DNA of 64,000 nucleotides from a virus (lineage: Duplodnaviria > Caudoviricetes): the IMG/VR virus record IMGVR_UViG_3300020413_000003, positions 60,935 to 124,934 of that record. One strand, 5' to 3'. Below are positions 3,001 through 18,993 of this stretch, piece after piece. The translations under genes and the position numbers were made by a program. The number at the start of each line of letters is the position of its first letter. The first letter of the stretch is position 1. The notes beneath the pieces were generated by a model. It was not told the DNA's origin. It saw nothing but the letters and a program-made list of their open reading frames with translations, and made no database searches.

Positions 3001-6000
3001 AATAATCTTGATGAATTAACTAACTTTAAACCTTACACTGATGATGATTACTCTATAAGAATTGATGAAGTAGCTGGTGGTTCACCTTTTATTCCTGGAT
3101 CTGTTGTTAATATTAACTCTGGTGATATTAGTTTCAATGCTGCATATACAACTGCATCAATTATCAATTTAACTGGTGTTCTTAAGATTACTTTAGTAGC
3201 AACACTTAAGAAAATTATACAAGTAACTGCTGTTGCTAATAGTGATGAAGTTTATATTGTTACTGCAAATAGTCATTACCTTACTCAAGGTGAAATGGTT
3301 AGTATTGATGGTAACCCATCACAAACTGTTGATAGTGTCGTTTATGATGAATATGATGGTGCTTTCCCAGTTCACACTATTGTAAGTCCTGTTGAATTTA
3401 CATATAAATTACCTTCTGCTGCAATAACTTCACCAGCTACAAGTTCTGGAAGTGTTAATATCTACGTTAAGTCACCTGTTCTTAAAATGTATTATGGACA
3501 TCAATATCTCTTTGATGTTGGTCATTCTTCTATGGCGGGTGGTAACTTATCATTCTCTAAAGATAATCTTTATAAACTGGAATATTCATTCAACTCTATT
3601 GAAAGAGTAGGTACACCTGGTATTACTGGTCAAGGTGTTCCTAACCCTACTGTTAAGTTAAAAGTTGATACTGACATTGTTACTAATATTTCTTACTACT
3701 TTGACCCATCTAGAACAGGTGCTGATTCTCCAGTTATTGCATCTAGTTACTTAGATGTTGTTAATTCACCTTACGTAGGTAATTTCGCAATCACTTCTAC
3801 ATCTGGTGCAACTATTACTCGTGGTGCAGATACCTTTAAATTTGTTCTTGCTAACGAACCAGAGGGTAATGCTGATGTTATCAATACATCTTATAGCACT
3901 AGTTCATTGAAAGCAGTTGGTTCTATAAGTGATATTCGTATTGTTAATGGAGGAGGTTTCTATACTAGACTTCCAGTTGTTACATCTATTCAGTCATCTA
4001 GACAAATAGAAAGAATTCAAATTGATGCACCAGGTACTGAATATGCTGTAGGTGTTTACAATAGTGTTCCTATTGCAGGTGATGGAGAAGGTGGATTTGT
4101 TTCTATTACTGTAGCAGACGGAACTGATGATGATGGAGTAACGATTCCTGGTCAAATACAGTCTGTTGTTGTTACATCACCAGGTAAAGGATATACTACT
4201 GCAAGTATTGATGTTGAATCTATATCGGGTATTCTTGGAGCAGGTTTAACAGGTTCTGGTGTTGATTTGAATGTTGTTATTCCTCCTGCAGGAACTGGTG
4301 CTTCTATCTTTACCAAAGGAACTAAAGTTGGTAAGATTAAGAAATTACAGAACAACAACTTTGGATATGATTATCCTCATGACTATACTTTACGTCCTGA
4401 GATTTCATTCCCAATTAACGCACAGTTAACATCCACAAGTATACTTGATAGTATTACAGTTACAGATCCAGGTTCTGGATATTCACAAGCACCAACCGTT
4501 GTTATCACAGGTGGTGGTGGACAAAATGCAACTGCTGAAGCATTCATTAAGAATGGTCGTTTAGATGATATTCTTGTTAAAGATCCAGGATCAGGTTACT
4601 CTTCTGCTCCTACTGTTGCATTAAGATCTTCTTTCAACTATGTTGTTAACCTTGACTTAGGATTACTACAATTTGCTTTCCCACATGGTATTGTGAATGG
4701 TTCTGAGGTTACATTAACAGTTACTGATACTGGTGATGGTGCTGAGTTCCCATTATCAGCAGGTGCTGTTGGTCGTTTGAATTCTACTAACACATATTAT
4801 GCTATTGCTGGTACTGCAAACTCACTAGAAGAAAACCAATTAAAGATTGCTATTACTGCTGCTAACGCTGCATTAGGTGACTCTTTATCATTTGTTAACG
4901 CAGGAACAGGTCGTCAAACAATATTAACTGAATCATTCGGTGGTGCAGCAACTGCTAACGTTATTACTTCTACATTCTTAGAAGGTGAACTTGTTTATCA
5001 AGGAGATACTTTAGATGCTGCAACTGCTAGTGGATATGTTTCTACTAACCAAGGTTGGCAGGTAGGACCTAGAATTATTAAGATTGTTGATTACACTGGA
5101 AACTTTAATGCTAACGAAAGAATAACAGGTGTTATTTCTAAGTCTTCTGGTATTATAAGTGATCTTAAGATTGCTCGTGGTGTTCTTGAAATTGGTTCTA
5201 TCACTAAGACAACTGGTCAGTTCATTGATGATATTGGTAAACCATCTGAAATTATTCAGAAAATTCAAGATAGTTACTATTATCAGGACTTCTCATATGC
5301 TGTTAAGTCTGCTGTTTCTATTGGTGAGTGGAAAGAGATATTACTTAAGAACGTTCACCCTGCATCATTCAAAGTATTCGGTGAATTAAATCTGGCTGAA
5401 TATGGTCAAATTCCTAACAAAGAAACTGATTTCCAGATAACCAAAGCTGTTGAATTAGCAAGAGAAGCAATTGTACCTAACATTCAGAGTTTCTCTCTAG
5501 TTGAACCAGTCTACTCACAGTTTAATAACTCAGAAGTATTATTCAGACAGAAGAGATTGACATCTTCTGAGAACATTTTGACTTCTGTTGTTCAGCGTAT
5601 TGATGATATATCAAATCAATTTGATGGTGTTAAAACACAGTTCCAATTAAAAGTTAATGGTGACAACGTAGTTGCTAATGCTAATCAGTTAATGATCATC
5701 TTAAATGGTGTTGCTCAAACTCCTGAGACATCATTTAATATTCAAGGTGATTCTATTGTATTCAGTCAACCACCACAACCACCTGCAAGTATTAAGTATG
5801 TAAACGTTACTATTCAAGAGATTACTATATCTACTCTTGAATTTACTAATATCAGTGGAATATTCCCACTCAAGGGAAATACAATGGCTGGACAGACTTC
5901 TTTAGCAAGATTTACTGTTACAGCTGTTGTTGGTAATTCAATTTTCGGTTTCTTTGTAGAAGGAACTGCATTTACAGTTGGTGAATTGGTAAGTAACAGT

Positions 6001-9000
6001 GCTACTGGATTTATTGCAAACTATGCTTCAGTATCAACTGTTTCAAATCTTGGATTGTTTGTATTTGGAGAGCAGGTTTCAAACCTTACTGGAGAGACTG
6101 CTAAAGTTGAAGCAATTAACTTAGCAGGTGGTTCTGAAGCTCCACTTGGTCAATTACGTTATGGTATAGGTCCTTCAACTGCATCAGTTGAAATTGTAGC
6201 AGCAAAGATACTTTCTACAGATGCTGATACACCTCCTGCAGCAGGAACATTTACTGTAGGTGGTAACTATCAGATTGGTTCTGAAATTGTAAATGTAACT
6301 AACGTTACTACTAACAATGATTCAGTTGTATTAGAAATAACTAGAGGTGAATTAGGTACTACAGCAGCAACACAGGCAGAAGATGGTCCTGTATATGCAA
6401 CAACAGTTCTTGTTAATGACAAGTTAACTTTAAGTAAAACTACTGGAACATATCAGTCTACACCTGGTTTATTTGATCTTGCTCTTGATGATGTTATTAT
6501 TGGTGCTCAGTCTGGTGTAGTTGCAAGATTGACTGCTACATCAACATATCAAGATCCTACAACTAATGAGTTTATCGGTCAGGTTAATATTTCAGAAGGA
6601 TCTTCATTCTTTGGATTACTATTCAACAGAGTTACATCAATTACATACCCAAATATTGTTCTAGATGATATTTCATTATCAACAATTAGTGTTGTTGACT
6701 ATACAGACTACGTAACAGATATTGATTCTCAATTCCCTGCTAACGAATTTATAAGTCAAATTGTAATTCCTTACGATAATGCTTCTGGATCATTATCTAT
6801 AGGTGAGAAGATTAGGAACTATAAATTTGATTATGGTAATAATGTTGGAACATTTAATAGTGGTGAAGCTGGTAAGTCTAGAAAACTATCATTTAAAGAT
6901 AAGATAGGAACTGGTCTATTCTCCACAGGCGATACAATAAGAACTAGAGATACTAAAGCAGAAGTAATTGGATTTAATTTCTCAGGTAATACAATATATC
7001 TTGGTAAGATTGGTAGATCATTAAGAGGTGGTGGTGATTATCATGTATTCAACTTCTCTGGTAGTGCTCAATTAGATACTTCAATTAAGAAATTTGGAGA
7101 TTCTTCATTACAACTTGATCTAGCAACAAGTGATTATATTCAAATTCCTGCATCATCTGAATTTACTCGTGGTACAGGTGATTACACTATTGAATTCTGG
7201 ATTCGTCTAGATGCAGTATCTTTAGCAGATACTAAGACTTTAGTTGATATGAGAACAAGTGCTACTGAAGTTGCACTTAGAATTTACTTAGAAGCAGCAC
7301 AAGTTCGTGTTAATGTTAATGGTTCAGATATAGCAACCTCTGGTGGAAATGCTCTAAACAATAATGTTTGGTATCATCTTGTAATTCAAAGAACTGGAAC
7401 TACTGTTAAGATTATATCTAATGGAGTTGAGATTGGAACTGGAACAGATAGTGGTAATTATACCTTAGATAGACCAATTAGAATTGGTGCAGATTTATCT
7501 GGTCTTAATTCTATAACTGCTCATATTGATGAGTTTAGATATTCTACTGTTGCACGTTATGCAACAATTCCATTTACTTCTCCTAATGGTATTTTCCAAG
7601 GAGATACTGATACTAAAGTATTATGCCACTTTGATGGTGCTGATGGAGCAACTAAGACTGAAGATTGGTCTGGTGGTGAATCATTTACTAAGGGTGAATA
7701 TGTTAATAACGATTCTATATTAACAACAAATAGTTCTAATCCAACTGCTGCACCTGCAGGATTTAATATTAAGAGTCACAGATATATTAACGCTGCAGAT
7801 TTAATGTTAATGAACAAGGAATATCTTGCTCAAGAAACAGTTTATATTATGAAGGAAGTATTCCCTGCTCATAGTGTTAAGGGTAGTGAAGTTGATTGTG
7901 AAGATGATGTAAGAGATGTTGTCGATTCTATAGTAGAAGATTTACGTAATGGTAGTAATCATCATATGTGGAAAGCAGCTTCATACTATGTTAATAGAGA
8001 AGTTAATCCAATTCAAATTGTAAACGTAGAAGATGATGTCTCTATGACAGTCTATGTTTATGAAATATTAGATAAAATTGCTAAGTATATTGTTAATAAT
8101 GTTCCTTGGAGTACTCAAGGTGATCATGGTTTAACTCAGAAGTATGACACTACTATTACATTTGATGGTTACACATCTCAAACATTAACTAAGTTTACAC
8201 CAACAGCAATCGACTATCATCCATCAATGGGTGACATGGAAATAACAGCTGCAAGTCATGGACTCGCGGCCCCTAGAACTATAACAGCATCAGGGTCGGG
8301 ATACACTGCTACCACTGGTGTTTTGACTATTGAATCTGTTGGGCACTCACTAGAAACTGGGGACAGAATTAAGTTTGAGCCTAATTCTATTACCATGACT
8401 TGTACTTGTGATGGTAATGTAGTATCACAGAGTTATCCTAGAGATGATGATCCAGCAAATCAAGGCTGGTTAGAAGTATCGAAGATTGATAATGATAACT
8501 TTAGTGTAAATGTTGGAACATCTCCTACAGTAAACTTTACTGCAACTTCAGCAGATTATAATAGTAATACTGGTTTCTTAACTATGGACATTGGTGACAA
8601 TGATCTAAGACCAGGAAGTAAATACACTGTTGAAAGTGCAGCATATAATCCTACTAGTGGTGTAATGACAGTAGGTATTGGTAACGATCAGTATAATGTT
8701 ATTGATGCTGATTATAGTCCTACAAGTGGAGATTTAGAAATCTTTGTTAGTTCACATAACTTAAAAACAGGACAGAAAGTTAAGATTGCTAATGATGGTC
8801 TTACATTCAGATGTTCTCAAGATGACTATGCTACTGATCACCCATATCCAAGAGCAACTGACCCTGCACGTAATACAGCATTAGAAGTTCTTCATGTAAC
8901 TGATGAATCATTCACAGTAAACGTTGGTAAATCTCCTATAGTTGAATTTGATGTTTCCAATGCAACATTCAATCCTAATACAGGTGATATGGAGTTGACT

Positions 9001-12000
9001 ATTGGAAATCATAGTTTGTCTTCAGGTACTTCTATTAGAATAGCAACTCAAAGTATTGGATTTACATGCACATATGGTGCAGGTGTTCACTACTACCCAA
9101 GACCTCTAATTGATGTGCATGTTCCAACTGATGCATCATATAATCCAACAACAGGTGTAGTAACATTCACTGTTAATCAGGGACATGGAATGAAGAATGG
9201 TGATAAGGTTAAGATTCCTGATTACTCACTTTCATTCACATGTGATAAAGATAATAATGCAACTACTCACAGATATCCTAGACCTTATGATCCTATTAGT
9301 GATAAATGGATTGAAATAAGTAATGTTCAAACAACATCAATCGATGTTCAAGTATTAGATACTGCTCCTTCCACAAATACATCTACTCATACTTTTGTAA
9401 GTTTTACAGATGTTATATCACAGAAACGTGATAAGTCATTTGAACAATCTATTCCAATTACTGCTACAACTGGAACAACTATTACTATTAATGTTGGTGT
9501 TTCAAGTAATACAACAACTCATACATATTCAACTTCTAAAGCAGGTGCTGTAATTACTGGTGGTAATTATAAGCATAAGTTTAGATCTGCACTTGATAAC
9601 GCTATAACAGTAGAGCATGGCTTATATGTTGGTGATAGAGTCATGTTCGATAGAGACTCTCTAACATTTACATGTCTTGAAGATAGTGGTGCTACTGAAC
9701 ACACATACCCAAGAATTACAGATCCTTACTATAATAAGTGGTTACCTATTTCTAATGTAACTCATACAACATTCGATGTTCAAGTACTAAGTTCTACACC
9801 TTCTACTAACCAAACTGCTCACACATTTGTTCGTGCTAAAGTTAATGGTCTAACAAGATCTGGTGAAACACTAAAACTTGCTAAAGACGCTCTATCATTT
9901 ACATGCTCACAGGATAATGATTCTACAGTTCATTCTTATCCTAGAGTCGATGATTCAGTTTATAATACCGCTATTCCAATTTGGAGTAATGGTAACACTA
10001 GAATGACTGCTGAAGGTGCAAGTTATAATACTTCAACTGGACTATTGACTATTAATATACTAAATCATGGTTTAACAGTTGGCACAGAACTTAGATTAGA
10101 AAATAATTCTCTTGTCTTTACTTGTGCTAAAGATGGTAATAAAACAGAGCATTCATATCCAAGACGTAAAGATCCATACGCTGCTAGATGGTTAAGAATT
10201 AAAGCAGTTAGTGATCATACATTTACAGTATTTGTTGGTGAAGCAAGTTCTACAGGTCAGTATGCACATACATTTGTAAGAGCAGTTAAGGATGGTATTG
10301 TTAAGCGTGATAATACTGTTACTGTTAACGTTGGTGCTACTCCAACTAAGGCATATACTCCATCTGCTGCAACTTATAATGCTAGTACTGGTGCTTTAGA
10401 ATTAAATGTCGGAACACATAGTTATCCTGCTCCAACACAACATACACCAACTGATGTTGCTTATAACCCTGTTAGTGGTGTAATGACTCTGACTATTGCA
10501 GGTCATAACTTCTCTAATGGTGAGAAAATTAAGATTGCTGATAATGGTATTAAATTAAGTTGTCCTTACGGTGGTGCAACTGGAACTGCTGCACAGAAAG
10601 ATTATCCACGTTCAACTGACCCAGTTAGCAACAAATGGATTCCAATATTCAACGTAACTACAGATACTTTTGATGTTCAAGTTTTAGATTCAATTCCTTC
10701 TACTAACGTTGATACTCATACATTTGTAAGTGCAGTTAATAACTGTGTTAGCAAGGCAAATTACACTGTTAAACTTGCTCCTGATTCATTACTAATGACA
10801 TGTGATATGGATACCAATGCTACTAAGCATGTATATCCAAGATCTAATGTTGCTACTCATACTCCATCTACAGGTACAAGTTACAACCCAGTAACAGGTG
10901 CTCTTACAGTTTCAATTCCTACTGAATCATTTACTGCTTCTGCTGCAAATTATAATGTCACATCAGGTGCATGTGTATTAACAATATCACAGAATGCAGG
11001 ATCATATAATGTTACTGGTGCAACTTACTCACCTTCTGTTGGAACTTTAGTTCTTACACTTGGAACTCATAGTCTAACAACTAGTGACAGAATTAAAATT
11101 ACTCCAGAATCACTTAAGTTTACTTGTGATTATAATAACGATAATAATACAACAATTCACCCTTATCCTCGTGCTGCAGGTGCTTACAACTCAACAAATT
11201 CAAAAGCAGATTATGCTTATGATACATGGTTAGACATTAGTGCAGTTACAGGAACAACAATCACTGTTAACGTTAACGGTGGTCAAGGTGCTATTACTGA
11301 CATTAGTAATCATACATTTGTTGGTGCACTTGATGGTGCAGTTCAAGTTGGTCATGGTATAGTACCTGGCAACAAAGTTAAACTTGCTCCTAACTCACTA
11401 ACATTTACTTGCACATTAGATGGCAACACTGCACAGAAATCTTATCCTAGATCAACAGGTGCTAATACAACAAGTGGTGCTGACTATGCTTATGATAAGT
11501 GGCTCAGAGTTATGGATGTTGGTGACAATACTATAACTGTTAACTTGAATGGTGGTCAAGGTGCTATCTCAGATACATCAGCACATACATTCGTTTCAGC
11601 TACTACAAATGGTATTACCCTTGGACATGGTATGGTTGCTGGTACACCTATTAAAATCAAAGATGGTGGCGTAACATTCAGATGTGCACATGATAATAAT
11701 GCTACTTTACATCCATATCCAAGGTCTACTGACCCTGCAAGTGATAAGTGGTTGTTTATCAAGAATGTATCTGATACTCAGTTTGAAGTTGATATTTTAC
11801 AAGGAACAACTCCTACAAATACAACAACTCATACCTATGCAGGTTCTCTTGATAATTGTATCATTCAAGGAGATCCACTTGTTGCTCAGGCAATTCCTAT
11901 TGATGCAGTAACAGGAAATACTATTACTATCAATGCTTTAGATGGATATACGCCTTCATTCACACCAAATCATACTTTAGATTCTGTAGCAACATCTCAG

Positions 12001-15000
12001 TTTACACCAACTAATGCAGTTTATAATGGAACTACAGGTCTAATGACCATAACAGTTTTAACTGCTAACTTCCAACCTTCTACTGTTGCTTATAATGCGA
12101 TAACTGGTGAGATGCAAATGACTATTGGAACTCATAGTTTGGCAGTTGGAGAAGAAATATTAATCGCTCCTAATTCACTAACATTTACTTGTGATTATAA
12201 TGGAGATGGAAATACTACAAATAAGACATATCCTAGAGCAACAGGTGCTGCAACTCCTAGCGGTGCAGACTTTGCTTACAATAATCAATTAGTAATTACA
12301 GACACAACCAACACCACTATTACTGTTAATGTTAATGGTGGCGGTGGAGCAATTACTGATACAACCAACCATGTATTTGTATCAGCATTAGCAGATGCAG
12401 TCAGTGTTTCACATGGAATGAAGAACGGTGAAAAAATTAAGATTGCTGATAATGGTATTACATTTACTTGTACTCATGATAGTAATGCTACAAACCATCC
12501 ATATCCAAGAGTAACTGATCCTGCTAGTGGTAGATGGTTAGATGTTCATAACGTCACGAATACTACTTTCGATGTTCAAGTATTAGATGAAATTCCTTCT
12601 ACAAATACTACAACTCATACATTTGTTTCTGCTACAACTAATGCGATTACAAGAGCAATAGTTTCAACTGGTGGTAACTATAAGCATAAGTTTATATCTG
12701 GTCTTACAAATGGTGTTAGAACTGGTGGTGACTATACTCATACATTTGTTTCTGCTACTTCTAACGGTATACATGTTGCAGGTGATTCAATTTACATTGA
12801 TAATAATTCACTAAGATTTACTTGTTCTCAAGATAATCATGAAACACAACATGATTATCCACGTGCCACTGATCCTGCAGCTAAGCATGTAATGGAAGTT
12901 AAGACTAAGGATGATAATAGATTCGTAGTTAACGTTGGCAAGTCTCCACAAGACAAACGTTATGATCACTTATTTGTTAGTGGTGATGCTAATTCTATTA
13001 CTAAGTCTAAGTATGTAATTACAAATTGTTCTGACGTTTATACAACTACAAACAACTTAATTGATATTCTTAGAGATACAATCACTCAGGCTGCTTTACC
13101 ATCTCCTGTAGATCATCTTGCATCTATTACTGATCTTCTTCCAGTAGATGAATTTGTTGGTGGAACAATTCATTCATATCTAGAAGTACCATTCAAAGTT
13201 ACATACGAAGATGATGCTCAGGAAATGGTATACACAGATAGAATCGATGTATTCAGTCGTTACAGATTCCGTGATGCTGCTAATTTAATTCGTCAGAACA
13301 CAGGTGCTATTGTAGATAAAGCATCCTATGATATGTTAATTCGCTACCCTGCTCTTTATCAGGATATGCCTAGAAACAATAATGGTGCATCTACAGATGG
13401 AATTGAGCGTTGTAAGACTGACCTTACACAGGTTTGTGGTGGACTTGCTAATGATATTGAAAATGGTGGTAATAAGAACGTTGTTGCTGCTGCAGGATTC
13501 TACATTGGTCAATTTAATGAAATACAACATATTAGATTACAGTTACTACAATCAATTTACGTTCATAATCGTTTAGTATTCTACTTAAAGCAAGCAATAG
13601 ATGGAAGTTTAACTACTGATAATACAGAAAATCTTATCGTTGGAGATTGGGGTATAACCAATGATGATAGTGTAACAACTTATGATGTATACAATGCATC
13701 TTATGACGCAGGAACTGGTGATTTGGTAATGACTCTTGCATCAAACACTGGAACATTTAGTGTTAGTGGTGCAGTTTATAATCCAACATCAGGTGATCTA
13801 ACACTTACAATCGGAACCCATACTTTAACAACTAATGATAAGGTTGGAATTGCTGAGGAATCATTAGTATTCACTTGTGATTATAATGGTAATGGTAATC
13901 AAACTCAGAAGAGATATCCTAGATCATTTGGTGCTGGTACAACAAATGGTGCTGACTATGCATATAATCAATTCCTTGATATTACTCAGGTAAATCAGAG
14001 TGGTGGAACAATCACTGTTAACGTTAACGGTGGTCAGGGTGCAATTACAGATACCACAACTCATAACTTTGTTGTTACTCCATCTGCTACAAATGCAGTT
14101 ACTGTTGGTCATGGATTTACTGCAGGAGATAGTTTACAAATTGGTAATGAAGCATTGACATTCACATGTTCAATGGATGGTAACGTTTCTAATAAGACAT
14201 ATCCTCGTGCAACAGATCCTGCATATGGTAAGGCACTTACAATTACAAGTGCTACTACAACAACTGTAACTGTTAATGTAGGAACTACTCCAGAAGTTAA
14301 GTATACTCCAACATTCGCAACATACACTGCTACAACTGGTGTGTTAGTTCTTACTATTGGCAACCACAATTTAGAGGTTGGTCAACCAGTTAAGATTAAT
14401 CAAGGTGCATTGAAGTTTACTTGTGCAATGGATGGAAATGAGTCTATTAAACCTTATCCAAGAACTAGTGATCCATTCTACAACAAACCTATTGATATTA
14501 CTGCAACTACAGCAGATACTATTCAGTTAAACGTTGGGCAGAGTCCAATAGTTTTACATACAGTTTCTAATGCTACTTACGATCCTACTACAGGTGTAAT
14601 GGTATTGACAATAGGATCTCACACTTTGACTGCTGGTACTAGCATTAAACTTGCTACTGAGTCATTAGTCTTTACTTGCACATTAGATGGTAATACAATT
14701 CAGAAATCATATCCTCGTGCTACTACTGCTAATACAGGAACTGGTGCTGACTATGCATACGATACTGCAATCAATATTGATTCTGCAGATACCGCAGCAG
14801 GAACTATTACTATCAACGTAAATGGTGGACAAGGTGCTATATCTGATACATCAGCACATACATTTGTTTCTGCTAATGCAGGTGCTGTAAGATCTGGTGG
14901 TGATTATGTTCATACATTCCATTCTGCAGATACAGAATCTATAATTGCTGGTGGTGAATATACTCACGTATGGGCAGGTGGTACTGCTACAGATGCAGTT

Positions 15001-18000
15001 AGTGTTATCGGTGATTGTGCAGATGTTAAGAGTAATATCGAATCATTAATCAATACAGTTAATGATATTATCGCACCTACAGGTCTAGATTATGATACTG
15101 CAGGTAACAGACTTTACTTTAACAGAGAACTTCTTGCATCAGATGTAACTTCTAGAATGTTAACTGAGTTTACATATCAAGCAGGTCCTACAACATACTT
15201 TGCATTCCAATTTGATGGAAATAATATATCAGCAGCAGACTTCCAAGCAGATGTTGAGGTATTGATTCAAAATCTAATATCTGATTTACAAACAGGTGGT
15301 AATAATAGTTCTATTAGAGCACTTCAAGAAGTGTATCTTAATTCTGATGGAACTCTTCATAGAATTGAAGATATGCTTATGCCAACTGTTTATGGTATGG
15401 AAGTTCTTAAGGAAGCAGGTAGAGAAGCAATTAGAAATAACGTATTCAATTCATCAGAAAATATTCCTTTCGGTGGATATGTAACAAACGCTGCTCAAGC
15501 AGCATTTAGAGATGATTTAGAGACTGTAGATATTGATCAAGTAATTGGAGATTGGAATAATCTTCTTGATCATGTAATTGAATTCTTCTCACCTGGCAAG
15601 AAAGAGGCTAGAAATGGTATGAAGAATATTCTTTATAATGTAAACTATTATAAGAATGAACTAAACAACCTTGTTAATACTCAGTTTGGTAATGGTGCTT
15701 GGGTCTATAATGATTTCGTTGATGAGTTAGTTGGAAATATAGTTCAAGACTCCATCACAACTCCTATAGATCATAAGACTACAGCAAGAAGAATAACTGT
15801 TACAAGTGTGAGTGGAGAATTTATAGTTGGTGAAGTTGTAACTGCTAATGGTGGTGGATACGCTCAGATTCTTGAATGGGATAGTAAAGACAGACATCTA
15901 TATGTCGGACCTTTCCTTAGTGGTACAATTTCTGCAGGTGAGACTCTTACTGGTGGAACTCAAGGTGGTGGAACTATTCCAACTGGAGGAGTTGGTATTG
16001 CATTTGATTGGTATACACAACCATCAAACGTTGAAATTCTTAGAAATGCAAGATTAATTAGTTCTACTGTTCAAGATCAATTAATAGGTGAAAACGTTGG
16101 TTATAATTATCCAGAAGATTTAAGTAGTGGTAATACACTTACCGAAATAACCATAGGTGCTGATAGTGCTGTTGCACCTGATAACGCAATTAGTGCTGAT
16201 AAGATTATTGCTTCATCTACTGTTGGTGAACATTTAATACACAGAAATTATAGTTTAAATGCATTTGAAACATTTGACGGTGGCACAGTTAAGTTTGACT
16301 CATCAACAGAGACATTTGATACTGGACAAGTAGGAACTACTGAATCACAGCAATTTACTTATTCTGTATTCTTAAAGGCAGGTGAGTATAGTAAAGTTCG
16401 TTTCGAGATGGCTCTTGATAGAGATACTACTGAGAAACAGCAATTGTTCTATGATATTGATTTAACAGATGGAAGTGTAGGTAGTATCTTCCAACCTCAA
16501 GGTGGTCTTACAGTAGATGGAACTGGAGTAATTCCTTATGGTGGAGGATGGTATAGAGCATACGGAACAATTACATGTTCATTCGGTTTCTCTCAACTCC
16601 GTCAACAAATTCAAATTAAGAATGCTACTGGTCAAACTAGTTTTGCAGGTAATGCATCTGATGGTCTTTATGCATGGGGTCTAAAACTTACTAAAGGAAC
16701 TATCGATCCTTATGCTGCTACAACTGGAGATGTATTCTACGCTGATACAGAATATAATATTAAGTCATATACAATCGATAGATTGGAAGAATGGATATAT
16801 GATGCATTGAAAGATCAACTTCTTAATCCTTCTCCTGAGTCAGGTTTTGTACCGTTCTTCAGTGATAGTGCATCTACTTATTATCATCCAGATTCAATTC
16901 AAAGATTGGTAAGATATAGTTTAGAAATAATTCGTAATCAATTATTAAATAGCACTTACTATACTGACATTGTTGTTCAAAATGCAATAGGTCTTCCAAC
17001 TAAAGATTATGGAACATTTGATTTCCCTGTTGCTCTTGCAGGTGGTCTTGCAGGTGCTGACTACTTGTATGGTTTAGAAAGTGGATCATATGCTGAACTA
17101 GAAAAAGTTACTATGAACGAAGGTGAAATTGTTCAAGTATATCAAAGATTCCGTATTGATGCTAATATTGTTGATGGTCCTTACTTCATGAATGAAGTTG
17201 TTCAAAAACAAGGAGATTCAACAGTCACAGGTGTTGTTTATGCATTCTATGAAGATGAAAACTTTAAGTATCTTGATGTTGCAGTTACTGGTGGAACATG
17301 GACAGTATTAGATTATGTTGTTGGTGCAACTAACTCAACAACTGCACAGATTAATGCTATTGAAGATAGAATACAAATCACTGGTCTTGAAGGAGAATTT
17401 GTTAATAATATTCCATTCAAGGGATATGACACAGGTGAAACTGCAATTCCAACTGGATTCTTAAAAGCACAAGCTGCTGTTCTTGACAATAGTGGTGGTA
17501 AATTAACTGTTGATACTGAGTCTCTAATAGGTAGTTTTGAAACATCTGCTGTAATATATCCTGAGCAATCTAAGTTATTCATGGATGTTGCCAGATATGA
17601 AGGGTTAGATGTATTAATCGGTTATAGAATTTCTTCTGCAGGACATACAAGAATTGGTATTACAATTCAGAATAATAAAAATGTATTTGTAGTAGGTAAT
17701 AAACTTAATAAGATTACTAATGGCATCATTGATATAAACAACTATGGTTATATTACTGAAGTTGATCTTGATAATAACATTCTATACTACATCTTAGCAG
17801 CAGGAAATATTACTAATGGTGATCAAGTTGGTGATTTTGGTGTTGCTCCTGATCCACTCAATCCATTAGGATATGCAGTAATTAATACTAAGTTAGATAT
17901 TGCAGGAGCTGCTAGTGCAGTAATTCAAGACATCAAAGATGTTGGTGTTAACAAACGATTCTATCTAACAAATGTAACAGGAACATTTAGTGGTAGAGAT

Positions 18001-18993
18001 GGAATCTTTGGTAAGGATAATTACAAGGCAGCAGTCATAACTAAGACTGATCTTAGAGGACGTGTTGAACGTGCATTCAGAGGATTTGATGGAACACAAA
18101 CTAACTTTAAGTTAACCATCTCAAACGGAACCAAGTACTTCCCAGATCCTGCAGGACATATGTTGATCTTCATCAACGGTGTTCTACAACCACCAGGTTC
18201 AGCAAATGCTTATACAGCATTCTCAGATAACATCCAGTTTACTGAAGCACCTGATCTTGGAGCATCATTCACAGGATTCTATGTTGGTAAACTAAGACAA
18301 TTAGATGATATATCTTTCGAGTTTGATTCATTACGTCAGTCATTCAACCTTAAGCGTGATGATGTATTCTACTCATTGACACTAACTGATGGTGTTCAAT
18401 CATCTACAATATTACCAGAGAACAATATCATTTGTTCATTGAACGGTGTTATACAGGAACCAGGCGTTGGTTTTGAATTGGTTGGTTCTAGAATAATCTT
18501 CTCTGAAATTCCTCGTGTTGGATCAACATTCGTTGCATTCTCATACGTTGGTTCTGAAGCGGACGTTGATGCTGCAGAAGTTGTACCACCAATAGAAGTG
18601 GGTGACTTCATTGATATACAAGGTGAGACTGAAGATAGACAGGTTGCTGTTATCGAATCTTCAAACTCCTTAATTACATTTGATTATCTTGGATCTGTAT
18701 TTGGACAGAATGCTCAGGCATCTGCTACTCTCACATCTGGAACTATTGATAAAGTTCAAGTTACATCTGGTGGATCTGGTTACACAACTAGACCAAATGT
18801 AAGAGTTGACTCCATATCTGGATTTGATGGAAACATTCGTGCACTAATTGGTGTAGCAGGTGTTGAAATTAGTAACGTTGGTTCTGGATATCAAAATCCT
18901 ATAATCAATGTTGAGACTTCAGTCCCAGATGACTGGACTGCTCCAGACTTAAGTCTATACGGGGAAGAGGGAGTTGACCCCGAAACCCCATAA
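1..18993 (+). CDS. gp7: Giant baseplate wedge initiator (gp7-like), 5'-truncated; multidomain (propeller-like region, 2 LamG-like domains, helical repeats, nested FTC/YPR domains)
   Basis: The frame is open from base 1 (KGEAVSTYSYES...PIM) into the listed ORF at 127, so the true start is upstream. Contains IQDSYYYQDFSYAVKS...VHPASFKVFG typical of gp7-like wedge proteins, many GSGY beta modules, and lies upstream of gp9/gp8. Confidence 0.8.
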   Translation, partial: KGEAVSTYSYESIGGINYGVLKTSTPHNLTVDDQVVIDYTPIMNNTNKTFVVKQIKGVEEIVIDQQGSGYNSELPPTIILDGDGTAAALEAVVTSVGSISTVNITNSGQNYTTNPRVILSHPQIYKKADYYVSKIANENYVKVNDVFVNDAKEIFICGKTKDSFGYTIGFLAKLSATGVKDWEKTIKSTDGQQEVEFERLLIDGQDIYVAGHNKPNASILEAYNPDVVLCKYTQAENGLSATLQYQKAYAGISGSTRSDNISAIAKYSDTRFVLGGFTNTNSGNPFDAYIAVVDTLGNFAVKRKITSVNVSEKVTDLLVNGTDIYYTLEIATSPNATSVDTGIGKATVGTSAISLVWTKQLTNTLYSFMDTSLTIDEFSELYITATTRLKSDNTTKDGFWIGKLDSDGAFLWNYRYAVAGGYTINVAKRTHIDIFGDLNIAVNKYLNTNGELTVDVVKVGYNGIIKNQTNNKFDLNNIEGVTAHSLYPDSSGDIHVFGQTSWNRNELLIPFTSGATTDVTGHYTATFVGDGNSLQYDTTNGFAKLLGKDSTTPSTWVNSVIQVNGSDLTTKMTGDWTIEFMLFKDAANNNNTHSQTQQTLIAIGDATLSTGGLWLYYDISSGEMQLVVTANGTALNSASGSLQSTVTTMFADNTWQFVALTKSAGQYTAYVNGIQVLQGTIDNTAFQNQNLYIGNIPGKSGTLNQFRSNEQGQYFVDNLRIRNRAVVPTVPNDVTNYPIAGEFSEGFTWTDTSWFSTYTNKYDYIDYVGWGLKVDKNSDAARIGTQTVQTNTQVGFTRTAIVLQTGLPLTVNNTGFGLAEAGFQNLDFDDADTSMTQDSDSLSYTQDVWSSRTATVPSPGSKKLRVTAVVKDRYFFKVTPTVKIDNIQELTLNQQFVFTTGSKLVLSSSSGSFINSGYIIRQNSVGNKIYLAVNNNAWANDLNTGELTTEQFNEQSTYGIVGPIPADVNELIYTFPLLNNTTPGTFDIDLNNFNHPEGGSNNLDELTNFKPYTDDDYSIRIDEVAGGSPFIPGSVVNINSGDISFNAAYTTASIINLTGVLKITLVATLKKIIQVTAVANSDEVYIVTANSHYLTQGEMVSIDGNPSQTVDSVVYDEYDGAFPVHTIVSPVEFTYKLPSAAITSPATSSGSVNIYVKSPVLKMYYGHQYLFDVGHSSMAGGNLSFSKDNLYKLEYSFNSIERVGTPGITGQGVPNPTVKLKVDTDIVTNISYYFDPSRTGADSPVIASSYLDVVNSPYVGNFAITSTSGATITRGADTFKFVLANEPEGNADVINTSYSTSSLKAVGSISDIRIVNGGGFYTRLPVVTSIQSSRQIERIQIDAPGTEYAVGVYNSVPIAGDGEGGFVSITVADGTDDDGVTIPGQIQSVVVTSPGKGYTTASIDVESISGILGAGLTGSGVDLNVVIPPAGTGASIFTKGTKVGKIKKLQNNNFGYDYPHDYTLRPEISFPINAQLTSTSILDSITVTDPGSGYSQAPTVVITGGGGQNATAEAFIKNGRLDDILVKDPGSGYSSAPTVALRSSFNYVVNLDLGLLQFAFPHGIVNGSEVTLTVTDTGDGAEFPLSAGAVGRLNSTNTYYAIAGTANSLEENQLKIAITAANAALGDSLSFVNAGTGRQTILTESFGGAATANVITSTFLEGELVYQGDTLDAATASGYVSTNQGWQVGPRIIKIVDYTGNFNANERITGVISKSSGIISDLKIARGVLEIGSITKTTGQFIDDIGKPSEIIQKIQDSYYYQDFSYAVKSAVSIGEWKEILLKNVHPASFKVFGELNLAEYGQIPNKETDFQITKAVELAREAIVPNIQSFSLVEPVYSQFNNSEVLFRQKRLTSSENILTSVVQRIDDISNQFDGVKTQFQLKVNGDNVVANANQLMIILNGVAQTPETSFNIQGDSIVFSQPPQPPASIKYVNVTIQEITISTLEFTNISGIFPLKGNTMAGQTSLARFTVTAVVGNSIFGFFVEGTAFTVGELVSNSATGFIANYASVSTVSNLGLFVFGEQVSNLTGETAKVEAINLAGGSEAPLGQLRYGIGPSTASVEIVAAKILSTDADTPPAAGTFTVGGNYQIGSEIVNVTNVTTNNDSVVLEITRGELGTTAATQAEDGPVYATTVLVNDKLTLSKTTGTYQSTPGLFDLALDDVIIGAQSGVVARLTATSTYQDPTTNEFIGQVNISEGSSFFGLLFNRVTSITYPNIVLDDISLSTISVVDYTDYVTDIDSQFPANEFISQIVIPYDNASGSLSIGEKIRNYKFDYGNNVGTFNSGEAGKSRKLSFKDKIGTGLFSTGDTIRTRDTKAEVIGFNFSGNTIYLGKIGRSLRGGGDYHVFNFSGSAQLDTSIKKFGDSSLQLDLATSDYIQIPASSEFTRGTGDYTIEFWIRLDAVSLADTKTLVDMRTSATEVALRIYLEAAQVRVNVNGSDIATSGGNALNNNVWYHLVIQRTGTTVKIISNGVEIGTGTDSGNYTLDRPIRIGADLSGLNSITAHIDEFRYSTVARYATIPFTSPNGIFQGDTDTKVLCHFDGADGATKTEDWSGGESFTKGEYVNNDSILTTNSSNPTAAPAGFNIKSHRYINAADLMLMNKEYLAQETVYIMKEVFPAHSVKGSEVDCEDDVRDVVDSIVEDLRNGSNHHMWKAASYYVNREVNPIQIVNVEDDVSMTVYVYEILDKIAKYIVNNVPWSTQGDHGLTQKYDTTITFDGYTSQTLTKFTPTAIDYHPSMGDMEITAASHGLAAPRTITASGSGYTATTGVLTIESVGHSLETGDRIKFEPNSITMTCTCDGNVVSQSYPRDDDPANQGWLEVSKIDNDNFSVNVGTSPTVNFTATSADYNSNTGFLTMDIGDNDLRPGSKYTVESAAYNPTSGVMTVGIGNDQYNVIDADYSPTSGDLEIFVSSHNLKTGQKVKIANDGLTFRCSQDDYATDHPYPRATDPARNTALEVLHVTDESFTVNVGKSPIVEFDVSNATFNPNTGDMELTIGNHSLSSGTSIRIATQSIGFTCTYGAGVHYYPRPLIDVHVPTDASYNPTTGVVTFTVNQGHGMKNGDKVKIPDYSLSFTCDKDNNATTHRYPRPYDPISDKWIEISNVQTTSIDVQVLDTAPSTNTSTHTFVSFTDVISQKRDKSFEQSIPITATTGTTITINVGVSSNTTTHTYSTSKAGAVITGGNYKHKFRSALDNAITVEHGLYVGDRVMFDRDSLTFTCLEDSGATEHTYPRITDPYYNKWLPISNVTHTTFDVQVLSSTPSTNQTAHTFVRAKVNGLTRSGETLKLAKDALSFTCSQDNDSTVHSYPRVDDSVYNTAIPIWSNGNTRMTAEGASYNTSTGLLTINILNHGLTVGTELRLENNSLVFTCAKDGNKTEHSYPRRKDPYAARWLRIKAVSDHTFTVFVGEASSTGQYAHTFVRAVKDGIVKRDNTVTVNVGATPTKAYTPSAATYNASTGALELNVGTHSYPAPTQHTPTDVAYNPVSGVMTLTIAGHNFSNGEKIKIADNGIKLSCPYGGATGTAAQKDYPRSTDPVSNKWIPIFNVTTDTFDVQVLDSIPSTNVDTHTFVSAVNNCVSKANYTVKLAPDSLLMTCDMDTNATKHVYPRSNVATHTPSTGTSYNPVTGALTVSIPTESFTASAANYNVTSGACVLTISQNAGSYNVTGATYSPSVGTLVLTLGTHSLTTSDRIKITPESLKFTCDYNNDNNTTIHPYPRAAGAYNSTNSKADYAYDTWLDISAVTGTTITVNVNGGQGAITDISNHTFVGALDGAVQVGHGIVPGNKVKLAPNSLTFTCTLDGNTAQKSYPRSTGANTTSGADYAYDKWLRVMDVGDNTITVNLNGGQGAISDTSAHTFVSATTNGITLGHGMVAGTPIKIKDGGVTFRCAHDNNATLHPYPRSTDPASDKWLFIKNVSDTQFEVDILQGTTPTNTTTHTYAGSLDNCIIQGDPLVAQAIPIDAVTGNTITINALDGYTPSFTPNHTLDSVATSQFTPTNAVYNGTTGLMTITVLTANFQPSTVAYNAITGEMQMTIGTHSLAVGEEILIAPNSLTFTCDYNGDGNTTNKTYPRATGAATPSGADFAYNNQLVITDTTNTTITVNVNGGGGAITDTTNHVFVSALADAVSVSHGMKNGEKIKIADNGITFTCTHDSNATNHPYPRVTDPASGRWLDVHNVTNTTFDVQVLDEIPSTNTTTHTFVSATTNAITRAIVSTGGNYKHKFISGLTNGVRTGGDYTHTFVSATSNGIHVAGDSIYIDNNSLRFTCSQDNHETQHDYPRATDPAAKHVMEVKTKDDNRFVVNVGKSPQDKRYDHLFVSGDANSITKSKYVITNCSDVYTTTNNLIDILRDTITQAALPSPVDHLASITDLLPVDEFVGGTIHSYLEVPFKVTYEDDAQEMVYTDRIDVFSRYRFRDAANLIRQNTGAIVDKASYDMLIRYPALYQDMPRNNNGASTDGIERCKTDLTQVCGGLANDIENGGNKNVVAAAGFYIGQFNEIQHIRLQLLQSIYVHNRLVFYLKQAIDGSLTTDNTENLIVGDWGITNDDSVTTYDVYNASYDAGTGDLVMTLASNTGTFSVSGAVYNPTSGDLTLTIGTHTLTTNDKVGIAEESLVFTCDYNGNGNQTQKRYPRSFGAGTTNGADYAYNQFLDITQVNQSGGTITVNVNGGQGAITDTTTHNFVVTPSATNAVTVGHGFTAGDSLQIGNEALTFTCSMDGNVSNKTYPRATDPAYGKALTITSATTTTVTVNVGTTPEVKYTPTFATYTATTGVLVLTIGNHNLEVGQPVKINQGALKFTCAMDGNESIKPYPRTSDPFYNKPIDITATTADTIQLNVGQSPIVLHTVSNATYDPTTGVMVLTIGSHTLTAGTSIKLATESLVFTCTLDGNTIQKSYPRATTANTGTGADYAYDTAINIDSADTAAGTITINVNGGQGAISDTSAHTFVSANAGAVRSGGDYVHTFHSADTESIIAGGEYTHVWAGGTATDAVSVIGDCADVKSNIESLINTVNDIIAPTGLDYDTAGNRLYFNRELLASDVTSRMLTEFTYQAGPTTYFAFQFDGNNISAADFQADVEVLIQNLISDLQTGGNNSSIRALQEVYLNSDGTLHRIEDMLMPTVYGMEVLKEAGREAIRNNVFNSSENIPFGGYVTNAAQAAFRDDLETVDIDQVIGDWNNLLDHVIEFFSPGKKEARNGMKNILYNVNYYKNELNNLVNTQFGNGAWVYNDFVDELVGNIVQDSITTPIDHKTTARRITVTSVSGEFIVGEVVTANGGGYAQILEWDSKDRHLYVGPFLSGTISAGETLTGGTQGGGTIPTGGVGIAFDWYTQPSNVEILRNARLISSTVQDQLIGENVGYNYPEDLSSGNTLTEITIGADSAVAPDNAISADKIIASSTVGEHLIHRNYSLNAFETFDGGTVKFDSSTETFDTGQVGTTESQQFTYSVFLKAGEYSKVRFEMALDRDTTEKQQLFYDIDLTDGSVGSIFQPQGGLTVDGTGVIPYGGGWYRAYGTITCSFGFSQLRQQIQIKNATGQTSFAGNASDGLYAWGLKLTKGTIDPYAATTGDVFYADTEYNIKSYTIDRLEEWIYDALKDQLLNPSPESGFVPFFSDSASTYYHPDSIQRLVRYSLEIIRNQLLNSTYYTDIVVQNAIGLPTKDYGTFDFPVALAGGLAGADYLYGLESGSYAELEKVTMNEGEIVQVYQRFRIDANIVDGPYFMNEVVQKQGDSTVTGVVYAFYEDENFKYLDVAVTGGTWTVLDYVVGATNSTTAQINAIEDRIQITGLEGEFVNNIPFKGYDTGETAIPTGFLKAQAAVLDNSGGKLTVDTESLIGSFETSAVIYPEQSKLFMDVARYEGLDVLIGYRISSAGHTRIGITIQNNKNVFVVGNKLNKITNGIIDINNYGYITEVDLDNNILYYILAAGNITNGDQVGDFGVAPDPLNPLGYAVINTKLDIAGAASAVIQDIKDVGVNKRFYLTNVTGTFSGRDGIFGKDNYKAAVITKTDLRGRVERAFRGFDGTQTNFKLTISNGTKYFPDPAGHMLIFINGVLQPPGSANAYTAFSDNIQFTEAPDLGASFTGFYVGKLRQLDDISFEFDSLRQSFNLKRDDVFYSLTLTDGVQSSTILPENNIICSLNGVIQEPGVGFELVGSRIIFSEIPRVGSTFVAFSYVGSEADVDAAEVVPPIEVGDFIDIQGETEDRQVAVIESSNSLITFDYLGSVFGQNAQASATLTSGTIDKVQVTSGGSGYTTRPNVRVDSISGFDGNIRALIGVAGVEISNVGSGYQNPIINVETSVPDDWTAPDLSLYGEEGVDPETP
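8194..13005 (+). repeat. 15 nested copies of a ~100-aa FTC...YPR domain inside gp7
   Basis: 15 (F/M/L)xC...YPR motifs, 15 opening hairpins (A.Y.P.TG...LT) and matching closing H.FVSA-type strands. Confidence 0.85.
13675..15006 (+). repeat. Second cluster of 4 nested FTC...YPR domains inside gp7
   Basis: KRYPR, KTYPR, KPYPR and KSYPR motifs with stacked closing strands (HTFVSA, GGDYVHTF, GGEYTHVW). Confidence 0.85.

What the first reader, a model, noticed from the sequence alone, without database searches (positions are those of the whole stretch)
13675..15006. Second, smaller nested tree (4 domains) obeying the same grammar
Parse E1[E2][E3[E4]]. E1 opens (YDVYNASYDAGTGDLVMTL), intact E2 follows, E1 resumes (GHGFTAG...KTYPR...VNVGTTP), E3 opens to VGQSP, intact E4 follows, then two stacked closing strands GGDYVHTFHSA (E3) and GGEYTHVWAG (E1). 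The insertion points (after part a; after VNVG.xP) are the same as in the large tree, which independently supports the nesting rule.
Basis: partly seen in the sequence, partly recalled or inferred. Interest (0 to 1): 0.7.

Follow-up and report, generated by a model that had tools for sequence, protein, structure and literature searches.

The report
Nested self-inserted domains in cyanophage fibre
A 444-residue stretch of a giant cyanophage tail-baseplate protein is built from four copies of one small, undescribed beta domain, two of them split open by whole copies inserted into their loops, which gives a small, testable example of recursive domain-in-domain growth.

Summary
Window 13675-15006 lies in a 6330-aa, 5'-open ORF at the gp7/baseplate position of a T4-like cyanomyovirus. 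It holds four copies of a ~105-aa all-beta domain with no Pfam, NCBIfam or PDB match. An automated token parse gives A1 A2 B2 C2 B1 A3 B3 A4 B4 C4 C3 C1, which is E1[E2][E3[E4]].

Orthologues give the strongest support. At the same scaffold point (GDWGITND | PG[DN]C.NV) they carry:
- no domain (Syn9, S-SM1);
- two domains (E1[E3]);
- four domains (this lineage).

One 43%-identical orthologue has E4 inserted after YPR of E3, and it has one stacked closing strand instead of two, as the nesting rule predicts.

AlphaFold2 models are confident: pLDDT 83.7 for the tree and 93.7 for one domain. Both insertion points fall in predicted loops. No coordinates were returned, so the pairing of the two closing strands with E3 and E1 was not read directly. 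The last closer, GGEYTHVW, is weak against the profile.

The closest known analogue is the recursively nested SBHM array of cyanobacterial RNA polymerase Si3. The principle is the same; the fold and context differ. I rate this a new member of a known kind, in a new domain family. The adhesion or decoration function is inferred only.

The parts
1..18993 (+). Giant virion protein ORF (6330 aa, 5' end outside the window) that carries both domain trees. It belongs to phrog_701 and phrog_18802 and is the counterpart of the Syn9 'structural protein; putative fiber'.
13642..13662 (+). Upstream scaffold anchor GDWGITN. In Syn9 and S-SM1 it is joined directly to the downstream anchor, with no tree between them.
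13675..13737 (+). E1 part a: orphan opening hairpin (aa 4559-4579, strands 1-2), 16.3 bits against the part-A profile.
13753..14079 (+). E2: intact domain copy (aa 4585-4693), inserted in the strand 2/3 loop of E1, just before the conserved His.
14107..14283 (+). E1 body (aa 4703-4761): GHGF...FTC...YPR...VNVG, strands 3-7.
14296..14538 (+). E3 opening hairpin plus body (aa 4766-4846). It ends at NVG and lies in the strand 7/8 loop of E1.
14557..14874 (+). E4: intact domain copy (aa 4853-4958), inserted in the strand 7/8 loop of E3. The single-domain AlphaFold2 model has pLDDT 93.7.
14884..14928 (+). Closer hairpin of E3 (aa 4962-4976, AVRS-GG-DYVHTFHSA). Joined to the E3 pieces in a script, it gives one continuous profile match, positions 2-100 of 102, 108.7 bits.
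14938..14979 (+). Closer hairpin of E1 (aa 4980-4993, SIIA-GG-EYTHVW). It is divergent. Orthologues have GGNY[TA]HTFVSA at the same place, directly before the downstream anchor.
15010..15078 (+). Downstream scaffold anchor GDCADVKSNIESLINTVNDIIAP.
8188..12981 (+). Large tree of the same domain family (aa 2730-4327): 15 domains, depth 7. It parses as balanced after two hand patches of weak tokens.

Best explanation
The stretch is a three-level tree of four copies of one cyanophage-specific all-beta domain of about 105 aa (8 predicted strands).

How the tree is built:
- The root copy E1 is interrupted twice. E2, a complete copy, sits in the loop after strand 2. E3 sits in the loop before the last strand.
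- E3 is itself interrupted in that same loop by E4, a complete copy.
- Each interrupted copy is finished later in the chain by a short closer hairpin of the form [hydrophobic strand]-GG-x-Y-x-H-x-[F/W]. This hairpin supplies the last strand and its near-invariant His. The closers therefore stack at the end in last-in, first-out order: C4, C3, C1.
- The whole tree is an excursion from one loop of a conserved scaffold of the giant baseplate-associated virion protein. The chain leaves and re-enters the scaffold at the same point.

Shown: the sequence grammar, whole-domain gain or loss at these loops among orthologues, and confident fold predictions.

Inferred:
- the split pieces fold into the same fold as intact copies;
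- the His/Cys/His triad (one residue each in the A-B linker, in FTC and in the closer) is a metal or packing clasp that holds the distant closer;
- the tree is a rigid, doubly tethered, surface-exposed cluster whose copy number is tuned for host adhesion or decoration.
For: 1. Profile pieces are complementary rather than overlapping: E1-a covers profile 2-22, the E1 body 20-92, E3 1-89; E2 and E4 are full length.
2. The parse is balanced without hand editing. Only 55 of 34650 token orders are well-formed.
3. Orthologues vary at one fixed scaffold site.
   - 22 of the 40 listed phage records cover both flanks in about 1400 nt. Alignment confirms that the tree is absent in S-SM1 and Syn9.
   - L043, L044, L046 and L068 carry 2 domains (ABbABbCC, 220 aa).
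   - L001-L011 carry 4 domains.
   - L012 (43% identical) carries 4 domains, with E4 placed after YPR of E3 and only one orphan closer.
4. Across homologues, 27 of 39 non-tandem complete regions in the 79 loci parse as well-formed, against 34 of 7800 shuffles. In the 150 representative proteins the figure is 14 of 82, against 22 of 16400 shuffles.
5. AlphaFold2: the 464-aa piece has pLDDT 83.7 and pTM 0.61. The opening hairpin scores 86-89 and the closers 93 and 80, and all are called strands. The single domain has pLDDT 93.7 and pTM 0.86, and both insertion points lie between predicted strands.
6. In 304 non-identical intact copies, Cys43 is ~100%, His92 (closing strand) 99% and His24 96% conserved. 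Both orphan closers, and the B pieces of E1 and E3, keep these residues.
7. Mean-field couplings learned from intact copies link closing-strand column 95 to body columns 42, 48 and 51. They also link the N-terminal columns 4 and 8 to the C-terminal columns 97 and 101. That suggests adjacent termini, as an insertable domain needs.
8. With those couplings, the nested closer-to-host assignment beats the mean of the other assignments in 23 of 27 trees. For the window's own tree the scores are 86.9 against 71.7.
Against: - No coordinates or contacts were available, so strand pairing of the closers was never seen directly.
- GGEYTHVW is a poor match to the profile's last strand: +1.2 bits, and the local alignment stops at position 87 of 102.
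- The coupling test is noisy and its cases are not independent. Two of the 7 close orthologues of this very tree give the opposite sign. By crude families the result is 11 of 13 positive.
- Many homologous regions do not parse automatically: 12 of 39 non-tandem regions in the loci and 68 of 82 in the representatives. With the stricter 4-token parser, 22 of 43 and 73 of 91 complete regions fail. I checked only four of the regions by eye (L012, L069, L047, L058). L069 and L047 failed only through missed or degenerate tokens; L058 contains a degenerate copy that I did not resolve.
- The function rests on annotation labels and context only.
Confidence: 0.8

Rival explanations
1. The closers are real last strands, but they are assigned otherwise than by nesting. 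Either the first orphan closer completes E1 and the second completes E3 (a crossing arrangement), or the closers are exchanged between subunits of an oligomeric fibre (3D domain swap).
For: The two closers are similar enough that the profile prefers the E3 closer on E1 (103.6 against 98.3 bits). Two of the 7 close orthologues favour the swapped assignment in the coupling test.
Against: In L012 and L043 the only orphan closer lies directly before the downstream anchor, as the last closer does here. It shares the motif [IV]xxGGxYxHx[FW]. In L012 the E3 closer is contiguous with the E3 body. The nested assignment wins in 23 of 27 trees (cases not independent). The couplings suggest that the N- and C-termini of a domain lie together.
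Confidence: 0.08
2. The orphan pieces are not parts of split domains. The opening hairpins and the GG-x-Y-x-H hairpins are small beta units of their own, for example an inter-domain sheet or fibre shaft. In that case E1 and E3 are truncated domains lacking first or last strands.
For: The closers come as regular strand-GG-strand hairpins with extra short strands between them (model residues 415-418 and 433-436). Such hairpins could form a meander among themselves.
Against: The counts of A, B and C balance in every tree that parses. The number of stacked closers changes with the insertion point, exactly as nesting predicts (L012 against the window). The closers keep the His and the aromatic residue that are 99% and 92% conserved in the last strand of intact copies. 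The pieces cover the profile once, without overlap.
Confidence: 0.07
3. The pattern is decay. A former tandem array of domains lost segments by deletion, and the orphan A and C pieces are non-functional remnants.
For: Degenerate copies do exist in homologues. L069 has a body piece without Cys and YPR, and L058 has a decayed copy.
Against: Random deletions would not leave balanced, properly nested token strings (55 of 34650 orders; shuffles). The orphan pieces are conserved between orthologues at 43-94% identity. The AlphaFold2 confidence over them is high. The 0/2/4 series shows whole-domain differences at loop positions, not ragged deletions.
Confidence: 0.03

Closest known systems
Si3 insertion of cyanobacterial RNA polymerase beta' (rpoC2): recursively nested sandwich-barrel hybrid motifs (SBHM)
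   Same: Copies of one small beta domain are inserted into loops of other copies of the same domain. Some copies are continuous and others are built from distant chain segments. Nodes are branched, and the whole array is an excursion from one loop of a host scaffold.

[quoted passage not shown]

Passages read in PMC13114784: a six-level recursive insertion architecture in Prochlorococcus rpoC2, with bifurcating nodes.
   Different: The fold and family are different. Foldseek of the single-domain model against PDB gives 0 hits at E<=0.001, and no RNA polymerase chain appears among the rows printed (ranks 1-50). The protein here is a virion protein, not an enzyme. Copy number at the site varies among close relatives (0, 2 or 4). 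The closers carry a dedicated GG-x-Y-x-H hairpin motif. The companion large tree has depth 7 after two hand patches.
Tandem Ig-like, FN3 or BIg domain arrays on phage fibres and decoration proteins
   Same: Small beta domains are multiplied in phage structural proteins, and their copy number varies between relatives.
   Different: Those arrays are linear beads on a string with single linkers. Here the copies are nested and doubly tethered. Foldseek of the 464-aa model against PDB gives FN3 chains at best, with TM 0.16, so the fold is not shared.
PHROG families phrog_701 and phrog_18802 (cyanomyovirus 'virion structural protein'); Syn9 'structural protein; putative fiber' ABA47070.1
   Same: The window's giant ORF matches these profiles end to end. 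It aligns with the Syn9 and S-SM1 proteins on both flanks of the tree.
   Different: The Syn9 and S-SM1 proteins lack this tree altogether. No description of the nested architecture turned up in my searches.

Membership tests
Recursive homotypic domain insertion (the kind exemplified by cyanobacterial RNAP Si3) | The host domain is discontinuous in sequence, and its pieces together cover one full domain profile once. | tested here: met
   E1-a covers profile 2-22 and the E1 body 20-92. Joined in a script, E3 gives one match over positions 2-100 of 102 (108.7 bits). Joined E1 gives 2-87 (98.3 bits), and the opening piece contributes 18 of those bits.
Recursive homotypic domain insertion (the kind exemplified by cyanobacterial RNAP Si3) | The inserted unit is a complete copy of the same domain family. 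| tested here: met
   E2 matches profile 1-106 and E4 matches 1-107 of 107.
Recursive homotypic domain insertion (the kind exemplified by cyanobacterial RNAP Si3) | An inserted copy is itself a host (recursion). | tested here: met
   E3 lies inside E1 and hosts E4. The parser gives depth 3.
Recursive homotypic domain insertion (the kind exemplified by cyanobacterial RNAP Si3) | Insertions lie in loops between secondary-structure elements. | tested here: met
   Predicted strands are 8-12, 17-21, 32-34, 40-44, 52-55, 74-81, 86-90 and 104-109. The insertions fall at about residue 22/23 and after residue 91-93. This rests on a predicted structure only.
Recursive homotypic domain insertion (the kind exemplified by cyanobacterial RNAP Si3) | In three dimensions the separated pieces form one domain. 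| tested here: inconclusive
   The AlphaFold2 model is confident over all pieces, but no coordinates were returned. The coupling test is weakly in favour.
SBHM fold (the Si3 domain family itself) | Structural similarity to sandwich-barrel hybrid motif domains of RNA polymerase beta'. | tested here: not met
   Foldseek against PDB with the pLDDT-93.7 single-domain model gives 0 hits at E<=0.001. The best TM is 0.41 (an endosialidase), and no RNAP chain appears among the rows printed (ranks 1-50).
Any curated domain family (Pfam-A, NCBIfam) | Score above the family's curated cut-off. | tested here: not met
   Pfam best hit is FlgK_D1 at 19.6 bits, against a cut-off of 28.6. NCBIfam gives 0 families. 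The PDB sequence search gives 0 hits. The profile search gives only a weak match to iota-carbonic anhydrase repeats, none significant on its own.
T4 gp7-type baseplate wedge protein | Gene position in the baseplate module and homologues annotated as gp7. | tested here: met
   The next genes are phrog_677, phrog_708 and phrog_438, all baseplate wedge proteins. Homologues are annotated 'gp7: baseplate wedge initiator' in P-SSM4, P-HM2 and S-RIM8.
T4 gp7-type baseplate wedge protein | Sequence or fold similarity to T4 gp7 itself. | not tested
   I made no comparison with T4 gp7. The labels come from the depositors and from PHROG.

The most novel reading that the evidence does not exclude
This is a previously undescribed, self-inserting protein domain whose fold is adapted for recursion. 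Its termini lie together, and it has at least four permissive loops. A dedicated GG-x-Y-x-H closer hairpin carries a His that, together with a Cys and a second His, forms a metal clasp for the distant last strand. Cyanomyoviruses would use the domain to grow branched, fractal-like 'bushes' on the baseplate fibre: 0, 2 or 4 copies at this site, and 4 to 15 copies at the neighbouring site. Copy number and topology would turn over quickly as a way of changing host recognition.
Probability: 0.2. Interest if true: 0.8.

Novelty: new member of a known kind. Interest (0 to 1): 0.6.

Why it matters
Recursive insertion of a domain into copies of itself has been documented in detail mainly for one enzyme insertion, RNA polymerase Si3. 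Here the same principle appears in a different, uncurated beta fold, in a virion protein of abundant marine phages.

Nature has already supplied the control series at one site: no domain, two domains, four domains, and a variant with a shifted insertion point. The 444-aa tree is small enough to express, truncate and solve.

It could therefore show three things:
- how a strand hundreds of residues away is recruited during folding;
- whether the conserved His/Cys/His triad is a clasp;
- whether the number and arrangement of domains on the baseplate fibre affects adsorption to Synechococcus or Prochlorococcus.

It also warns annotators that linear domain callers will report 'partial' domains in these giants where the domains are in fact complete but split.

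Tried and rejected
1. Complex prediction. I sent three chains: E1 with E2 but without its closer; E3[E4] with its closer; and the 34-aa E1 closer as the partner. The verdict was 'no answer' (scores 0.10 and 0.01, mark 0.32). No controls were run and no contacts were given, so the job says nothing either way.

2. Foldseek of the whole 464-aa model against PDB gave only meaningless multi-domain matches (best TM 0.16).

3. I looked for model coordinates in the script box and found none.

4. The 4-token automated parser (A, B1, B2, C) had a low success rate on divergent proteins: 21 of 43 complete regions in the loci and 18 of 91 in the representatives, of which 14 are plain tandem. Two causes are apparent. 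Weak closers are missed, and hosts split inside B2 give two 'b' tokens. I replaced it with a 3-token parser, which still fails on many regions.

5. A coupling test for stacked opening hairpins found no usable tree (0 cases).

6. The search for related loci with the domain alignment on prokaryote genomes was not possible. 'Cyanophage-only' therefore rests on the phage database and BFVD, not on a real survey of cells.

7. The profile match to iota-carbonic anhydrase repeats (three stretches of 10.8, 5.0 and 4.8 bits) is judged chance or convergent. It was not among the Foldseek rows printed (ranks 1-50).

9. Paper searches found no description of this architecture in cyanophage proteins. Subscription journals and paper supplements were not visible to me.
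Full report
**Context**

The window is the structural module of a T4-like cyanomyovirus, with all genes on the + strand. A 6330-aa ORF, open at its 5' end (1..18993), is followed by:
- baseplate wedge genes (phrog_677, phrog_708, phrog_438);
- two more giant ORFs;
- neck, sheath-stabiliser, terminase, sheath and portal genes.

The giant matches phrog_701 and phrog_18802 ('virion structural protein') end to end. Its relatives are annotated 'gp7: baseplate wedge initiator', 'structural protein' or, in Syn9, 'structural protein; putative fiber'. These are depositors' labels. tblastn of the finding against 50,697 phage records hits 319 records. All are Synechococcus or Prochlorococcus phages, cyanophages or marine viruses, and all are below 60% identity. 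Within the window only this ORF carries the domain (27 profile stretches).

**Observation**

They are aa 4559-5002 of the giant.

A profile built from seven uninterrupted copies divides the stretch as follows:

| aa | profile positions (of 107) | reading |
|---|---|---|
| 4562-4582 | 2-22 | E1 opening piece |
| 4586-4693 | 1-106 | E2, intact |
| 4702-4763 | 20-92 | E1 body |
| 4768-4846 | 1-89 | E3 opening piece and body |
| 4853-4959 | 1-107 | E4, intact |

I then built four part-profiles: A (strands 1-2), B1 (from the His linker to YPR), B2 (strands 6-7) and C (last strand). With them the orphan opening piece scores 16.3 bits. No A, B1 or B2 hit scores above zero in the roughly 4300 residues outside the two trees.

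A stack parser for the grammar D -> A D* B D* C accepts the small tree without editing: A1 A2 B2 C2 B1 A3 B3 A4 B4 C4 C3 C1, depth 3. Only 55 of the 34650 possible orders of these tokens are well-formed.

**The domain**

An alignment of 85 uninterrupted copies and a wider set of 304 non-identical copies show these conserved residues:

| residue | conservation |
|---|---|
| Cys of FTC | ~100% |
| Pro of YPR | 100% |
| His of the last strand | 99% |
| Gly of TG | 99% |
| His in the strand 2/3 linker | 96% |
| Asp of DP | 93% |
| aromatic residue two after the last-strand His | 92% |

AlphaFold2 folds one copy (E4) with pLDDT 93.7 and pTM 0.86 as eight strands. The comparisons gave:
- Foldseek against PDB: nothing at E<=0.001, best TM 0.41.
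- Foldseek against BFVD: 24 hits at E<=0.001, and every named hit is a Synechococcus phage protein.
- Pfam, NCBIfam and PDB sequence searches: nothing above threshold.
- A profile search of 1.84 billion representative proteins: 755 with E<=0.001. The family is real but narrow.

**Insertion points**

In E1 the chain leaves after ...GDLVMTL (strand 2) and returns at GHGF, just before the conserved His. This lies in the predicted loop between strands 2 and 3.

In E1 and in E3 the chain also leaves after NVG (strand 7) and returns at GG-x-Y-x-H. This lies in the loop between strands 7 and 8.

The large tree (aa 2730-4327) uses the same two points. It also uses a point after YPR and one inside the strand 6/7 hairpin. 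It has 15 A and 15 B1 tokens. It parses as balanced, at depth 7, only after two hand patches: dropping one linker His that mimics a closer, and adding one weak closer.

**Comparative evidence (the strongest part)**

The tree sits between two conserved scaffold motifs, GDWGITN upstream and G[DN]C.[DN]V...L...N[DE]..AP downstream. At this one site:

- **No domain.** With the tree plus both flanks as query, 22 of the 40 listed phage records cover 51% of the query in two pieces spanning about 1400 nt, that is, both flanks without the tree. In the alignment, S-SM1 and Syn9 read ...IVGDWGITND|PGNCANVQ..., with no domain at all.
- **Two domains.** Four metagenomic relatives (L043, L044, L046, L068) carry two domains. 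An uninterrupted-start E1 hosts one intact copy before its closer (ABbABbCC, 220 aa between the anchors).
- **Four domains, same topology.** L001-L011 (71-100% identical) have the window's arrangement.
- **Four domains, shifted insertion.** L012 (43% identical) also has four domains, but E4 is inserted after YPR of E3. The last strand of E3 is then contiguous with its strand 7, and only one orphan closer remains, directly before the downstream anchor. The nesting rule predicts exactly this.

This also identifies the window's last closer as the E1 closer by position and by motif: SIIAGGEYTHVW here, AVIAGGNYTHTF in L012 and AIVTGGNYAHTF in L043.

The neighbouring large-tree frame varies in the same way. 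L069 has 4 domains between the same outer pieces where the window has 15.

**Wider test of the grammar**

With fully automatic tokens (A, B1, and H.[FWY] outside masked tokens), the results were:

| set | complete regions | non-tandem | non-tandem, well-formed | shuffles well-formed |
|---|---|---|---|---|
| 79 loci | 43 | 39 | 27 | 34 of 7800 |
| 150 representative proteins | 109 | 82 | 14 | 22 of 16400 |

The remaining regions fail. I inspected four regions by eye (L012, L069, L047, L058). L069 and L047 failed through missed or degenerate tokens or hosts split inside B2, and L058 contains a degenerate copy that I did not resolve. The others I did not check.

A four-deep module, ABABABABCCCC (about 405 aa), recurs in many proteins.

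**Structure of the tree**

AlphaFold2 was run on aa 4549-5012 with 40 homologous segments. It gives pLDDT 83.7 and pTM 0.61. Every piece is called as strands:
- opening hairpin, pLDDT 86-89;
- E3 closer block, 93;
- E1 closer blocks, 80.

Each closer is preceded by a short strand and the GG turn, so the closers are hairpins. The tool returns no coordinates and none are in the script box. The decisive reading, which sheet each closer joins, was therefore not possible.

**Couplings**

Mean-field direct-coupling analysis on the 304 intact copies (effective number 237) gives a sensible strand map:
- strands 1/2, 4/5 and 6/7 form hairpins;
- strand 2 runs antiparallel to strand 7;
- closing-strand column 95 is linked to body columns 42, 48 and 51;
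- the Cys column is linked to the last-strand His column;
- N-terminal columns 4 and 8 are linked to C-terminal columns 97 and 101.

I scored orphan closers against candidate host bodies with these couplings. The nested assignment exceeds the mean of the alternatives in 23 of 27 non-identical trees. For the window's own tree the scores are 86.9 against 71.7.

The cases are related to one another. By crude families the result is 11 of 13 positive, and two of the seven close orthologues of this tree point the other way. I count this as weak support.

**Virtual excision**

I joined the pieces by coordinates in a script. E3 gives one continuous match to profile positions 2-100 of 102 (108.7 bits). 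The intact copies score 105.9 and 118.0 bits. E1 gives positions 2-87 (98.3 bits). Its opening piece adds 18 bits, but its closer adds only about 1 bit. The window's E1 closer has drifted (THVWAGG against HTFVSA) while keeping G-G-x-Y-x-H-x-aromatic.

**What it most likely is and does**

The architecture is a recursive self-insertion tree, itself inserted in a scaffold loop of the baseplate-associated giant. I put this at about 0.8.

The consequences below are inferred:
- every domain but the root is tethered by two chain crossings, so the cluster should be compact and rigid rather than a flexible string;
- the tree begins and ends at one point, so it can be gained or lost without disturbing the scaffold, as the 0/2/4 series shows;
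- the His/Cys/His triad spans the linker, the body and the closer, and is a candidate clasp. No metal was tested.

The giant also carries concanavalin/laminin-G-like domains, and the copy number of the tree varies among relatives. I therefore think an exposed adhesion or decoration role is most likely, at perhaps 0.4. Nothing here tests it.

**Comparison with what is known**

The closest analogue is the Si3 insertion of cyanobacterial RNA polymerase.
- Passages read in PMC10895346: eight SBHM copies, of which four are assembled from distant chain segments.
- Passages read in PMC13114784: a six-level recursive insertion with bifurcating nodes in Prochlorococcus rpoC2, given as the extreme case in a survey of 2.7 million classified domains.

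The present case works like that one, but it is not an SBHM by Foldseek, and it sits in a virion protein. Five full-text searches found no description of nested domains in cyanophage structural proteins. Subscription literature and paper supplements were not visible to me.

**Verdict**

Strand-level pairing is still to be read. This is a new member of a known kind, in an uncurated domain family. Interest 0.6.

Noticed in passing
window 8188-12981 (aa 2730-4327): This is the large tree of the same domain: 15 opening pieces and 15 bodies. It parses as balanced at depth 7 only after two hand patches of weak or false closers. It uses extra insertion points, after YPR and inside the strand 6/7 hairpin.
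   Followed up: partly
every domain copy, e.g. window 14620-14622 (His), 14677-14679 (Cys) and 14857-14859 (His) in E4: A near-invariant His/Cys/His triad is spread over the strand 2/3 linker, the FTC strand and the closing strand (96%, ~100% and 99% of 304 copies). It is a possible metal clasp. The Cys and last-His columns are coupled in the DCA. No structure or metal test was possible.
   Followed up: partly
window 13024-13038 and 15013-15027: Both trees are followed by a similar scaffold motif ([ND]C[SA]DV....N.LI). This suggests that the scaffold is itself a repeated module with a tree-bearing loop.
   Followed up: no
window 7027-7050 (aa 2343-2350): A closer-like GGGDYHVF motif lies just upstream of the Laminin_G_3 domain (aa 2376-2519), far from any tree.
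   Followed up: no
window 9556-9594 and 12667-12705: Two closers of the large tree (TGGNYKHKF...) at different depths are 90% identical over 39 nt. The bodies of E2 and E4 share 78-81% nucleotide identity with a large-tree copy over 63-120 nt (repeat families D8 and D10). This hints at exchange or recent duplication between the trees.
   Followed up: no
P0003 (4764 aa) and other representative proteins: A four-deep right-nested module, ABABABABCCCC (about 405 aa), recurs. P0003 alone has six copies in its four parsed regions, and the module appears in at least eight other proteins. Nested modules therefore seem to duplicate as units.
   Followed up: partly
L082:1001-1336: The only hit in the prokaryote genome collection is a 23-kb contig of a metagenome-assembled genome labelled as a Methanobacteriota archaeon. 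It carries a copy 66% identical to E4. It is probably a cyanophage contig binned by mistake.
   Followed up: no
domain profile positions 15-55: There is a weak profile match to the three internal repeats of iota-carbonic anhydrase (PDB 7c5x; 10.8, 5.0 and 4.8 bits). None is significant on its own, and Foldseek does not support it.
   Followed up: partly
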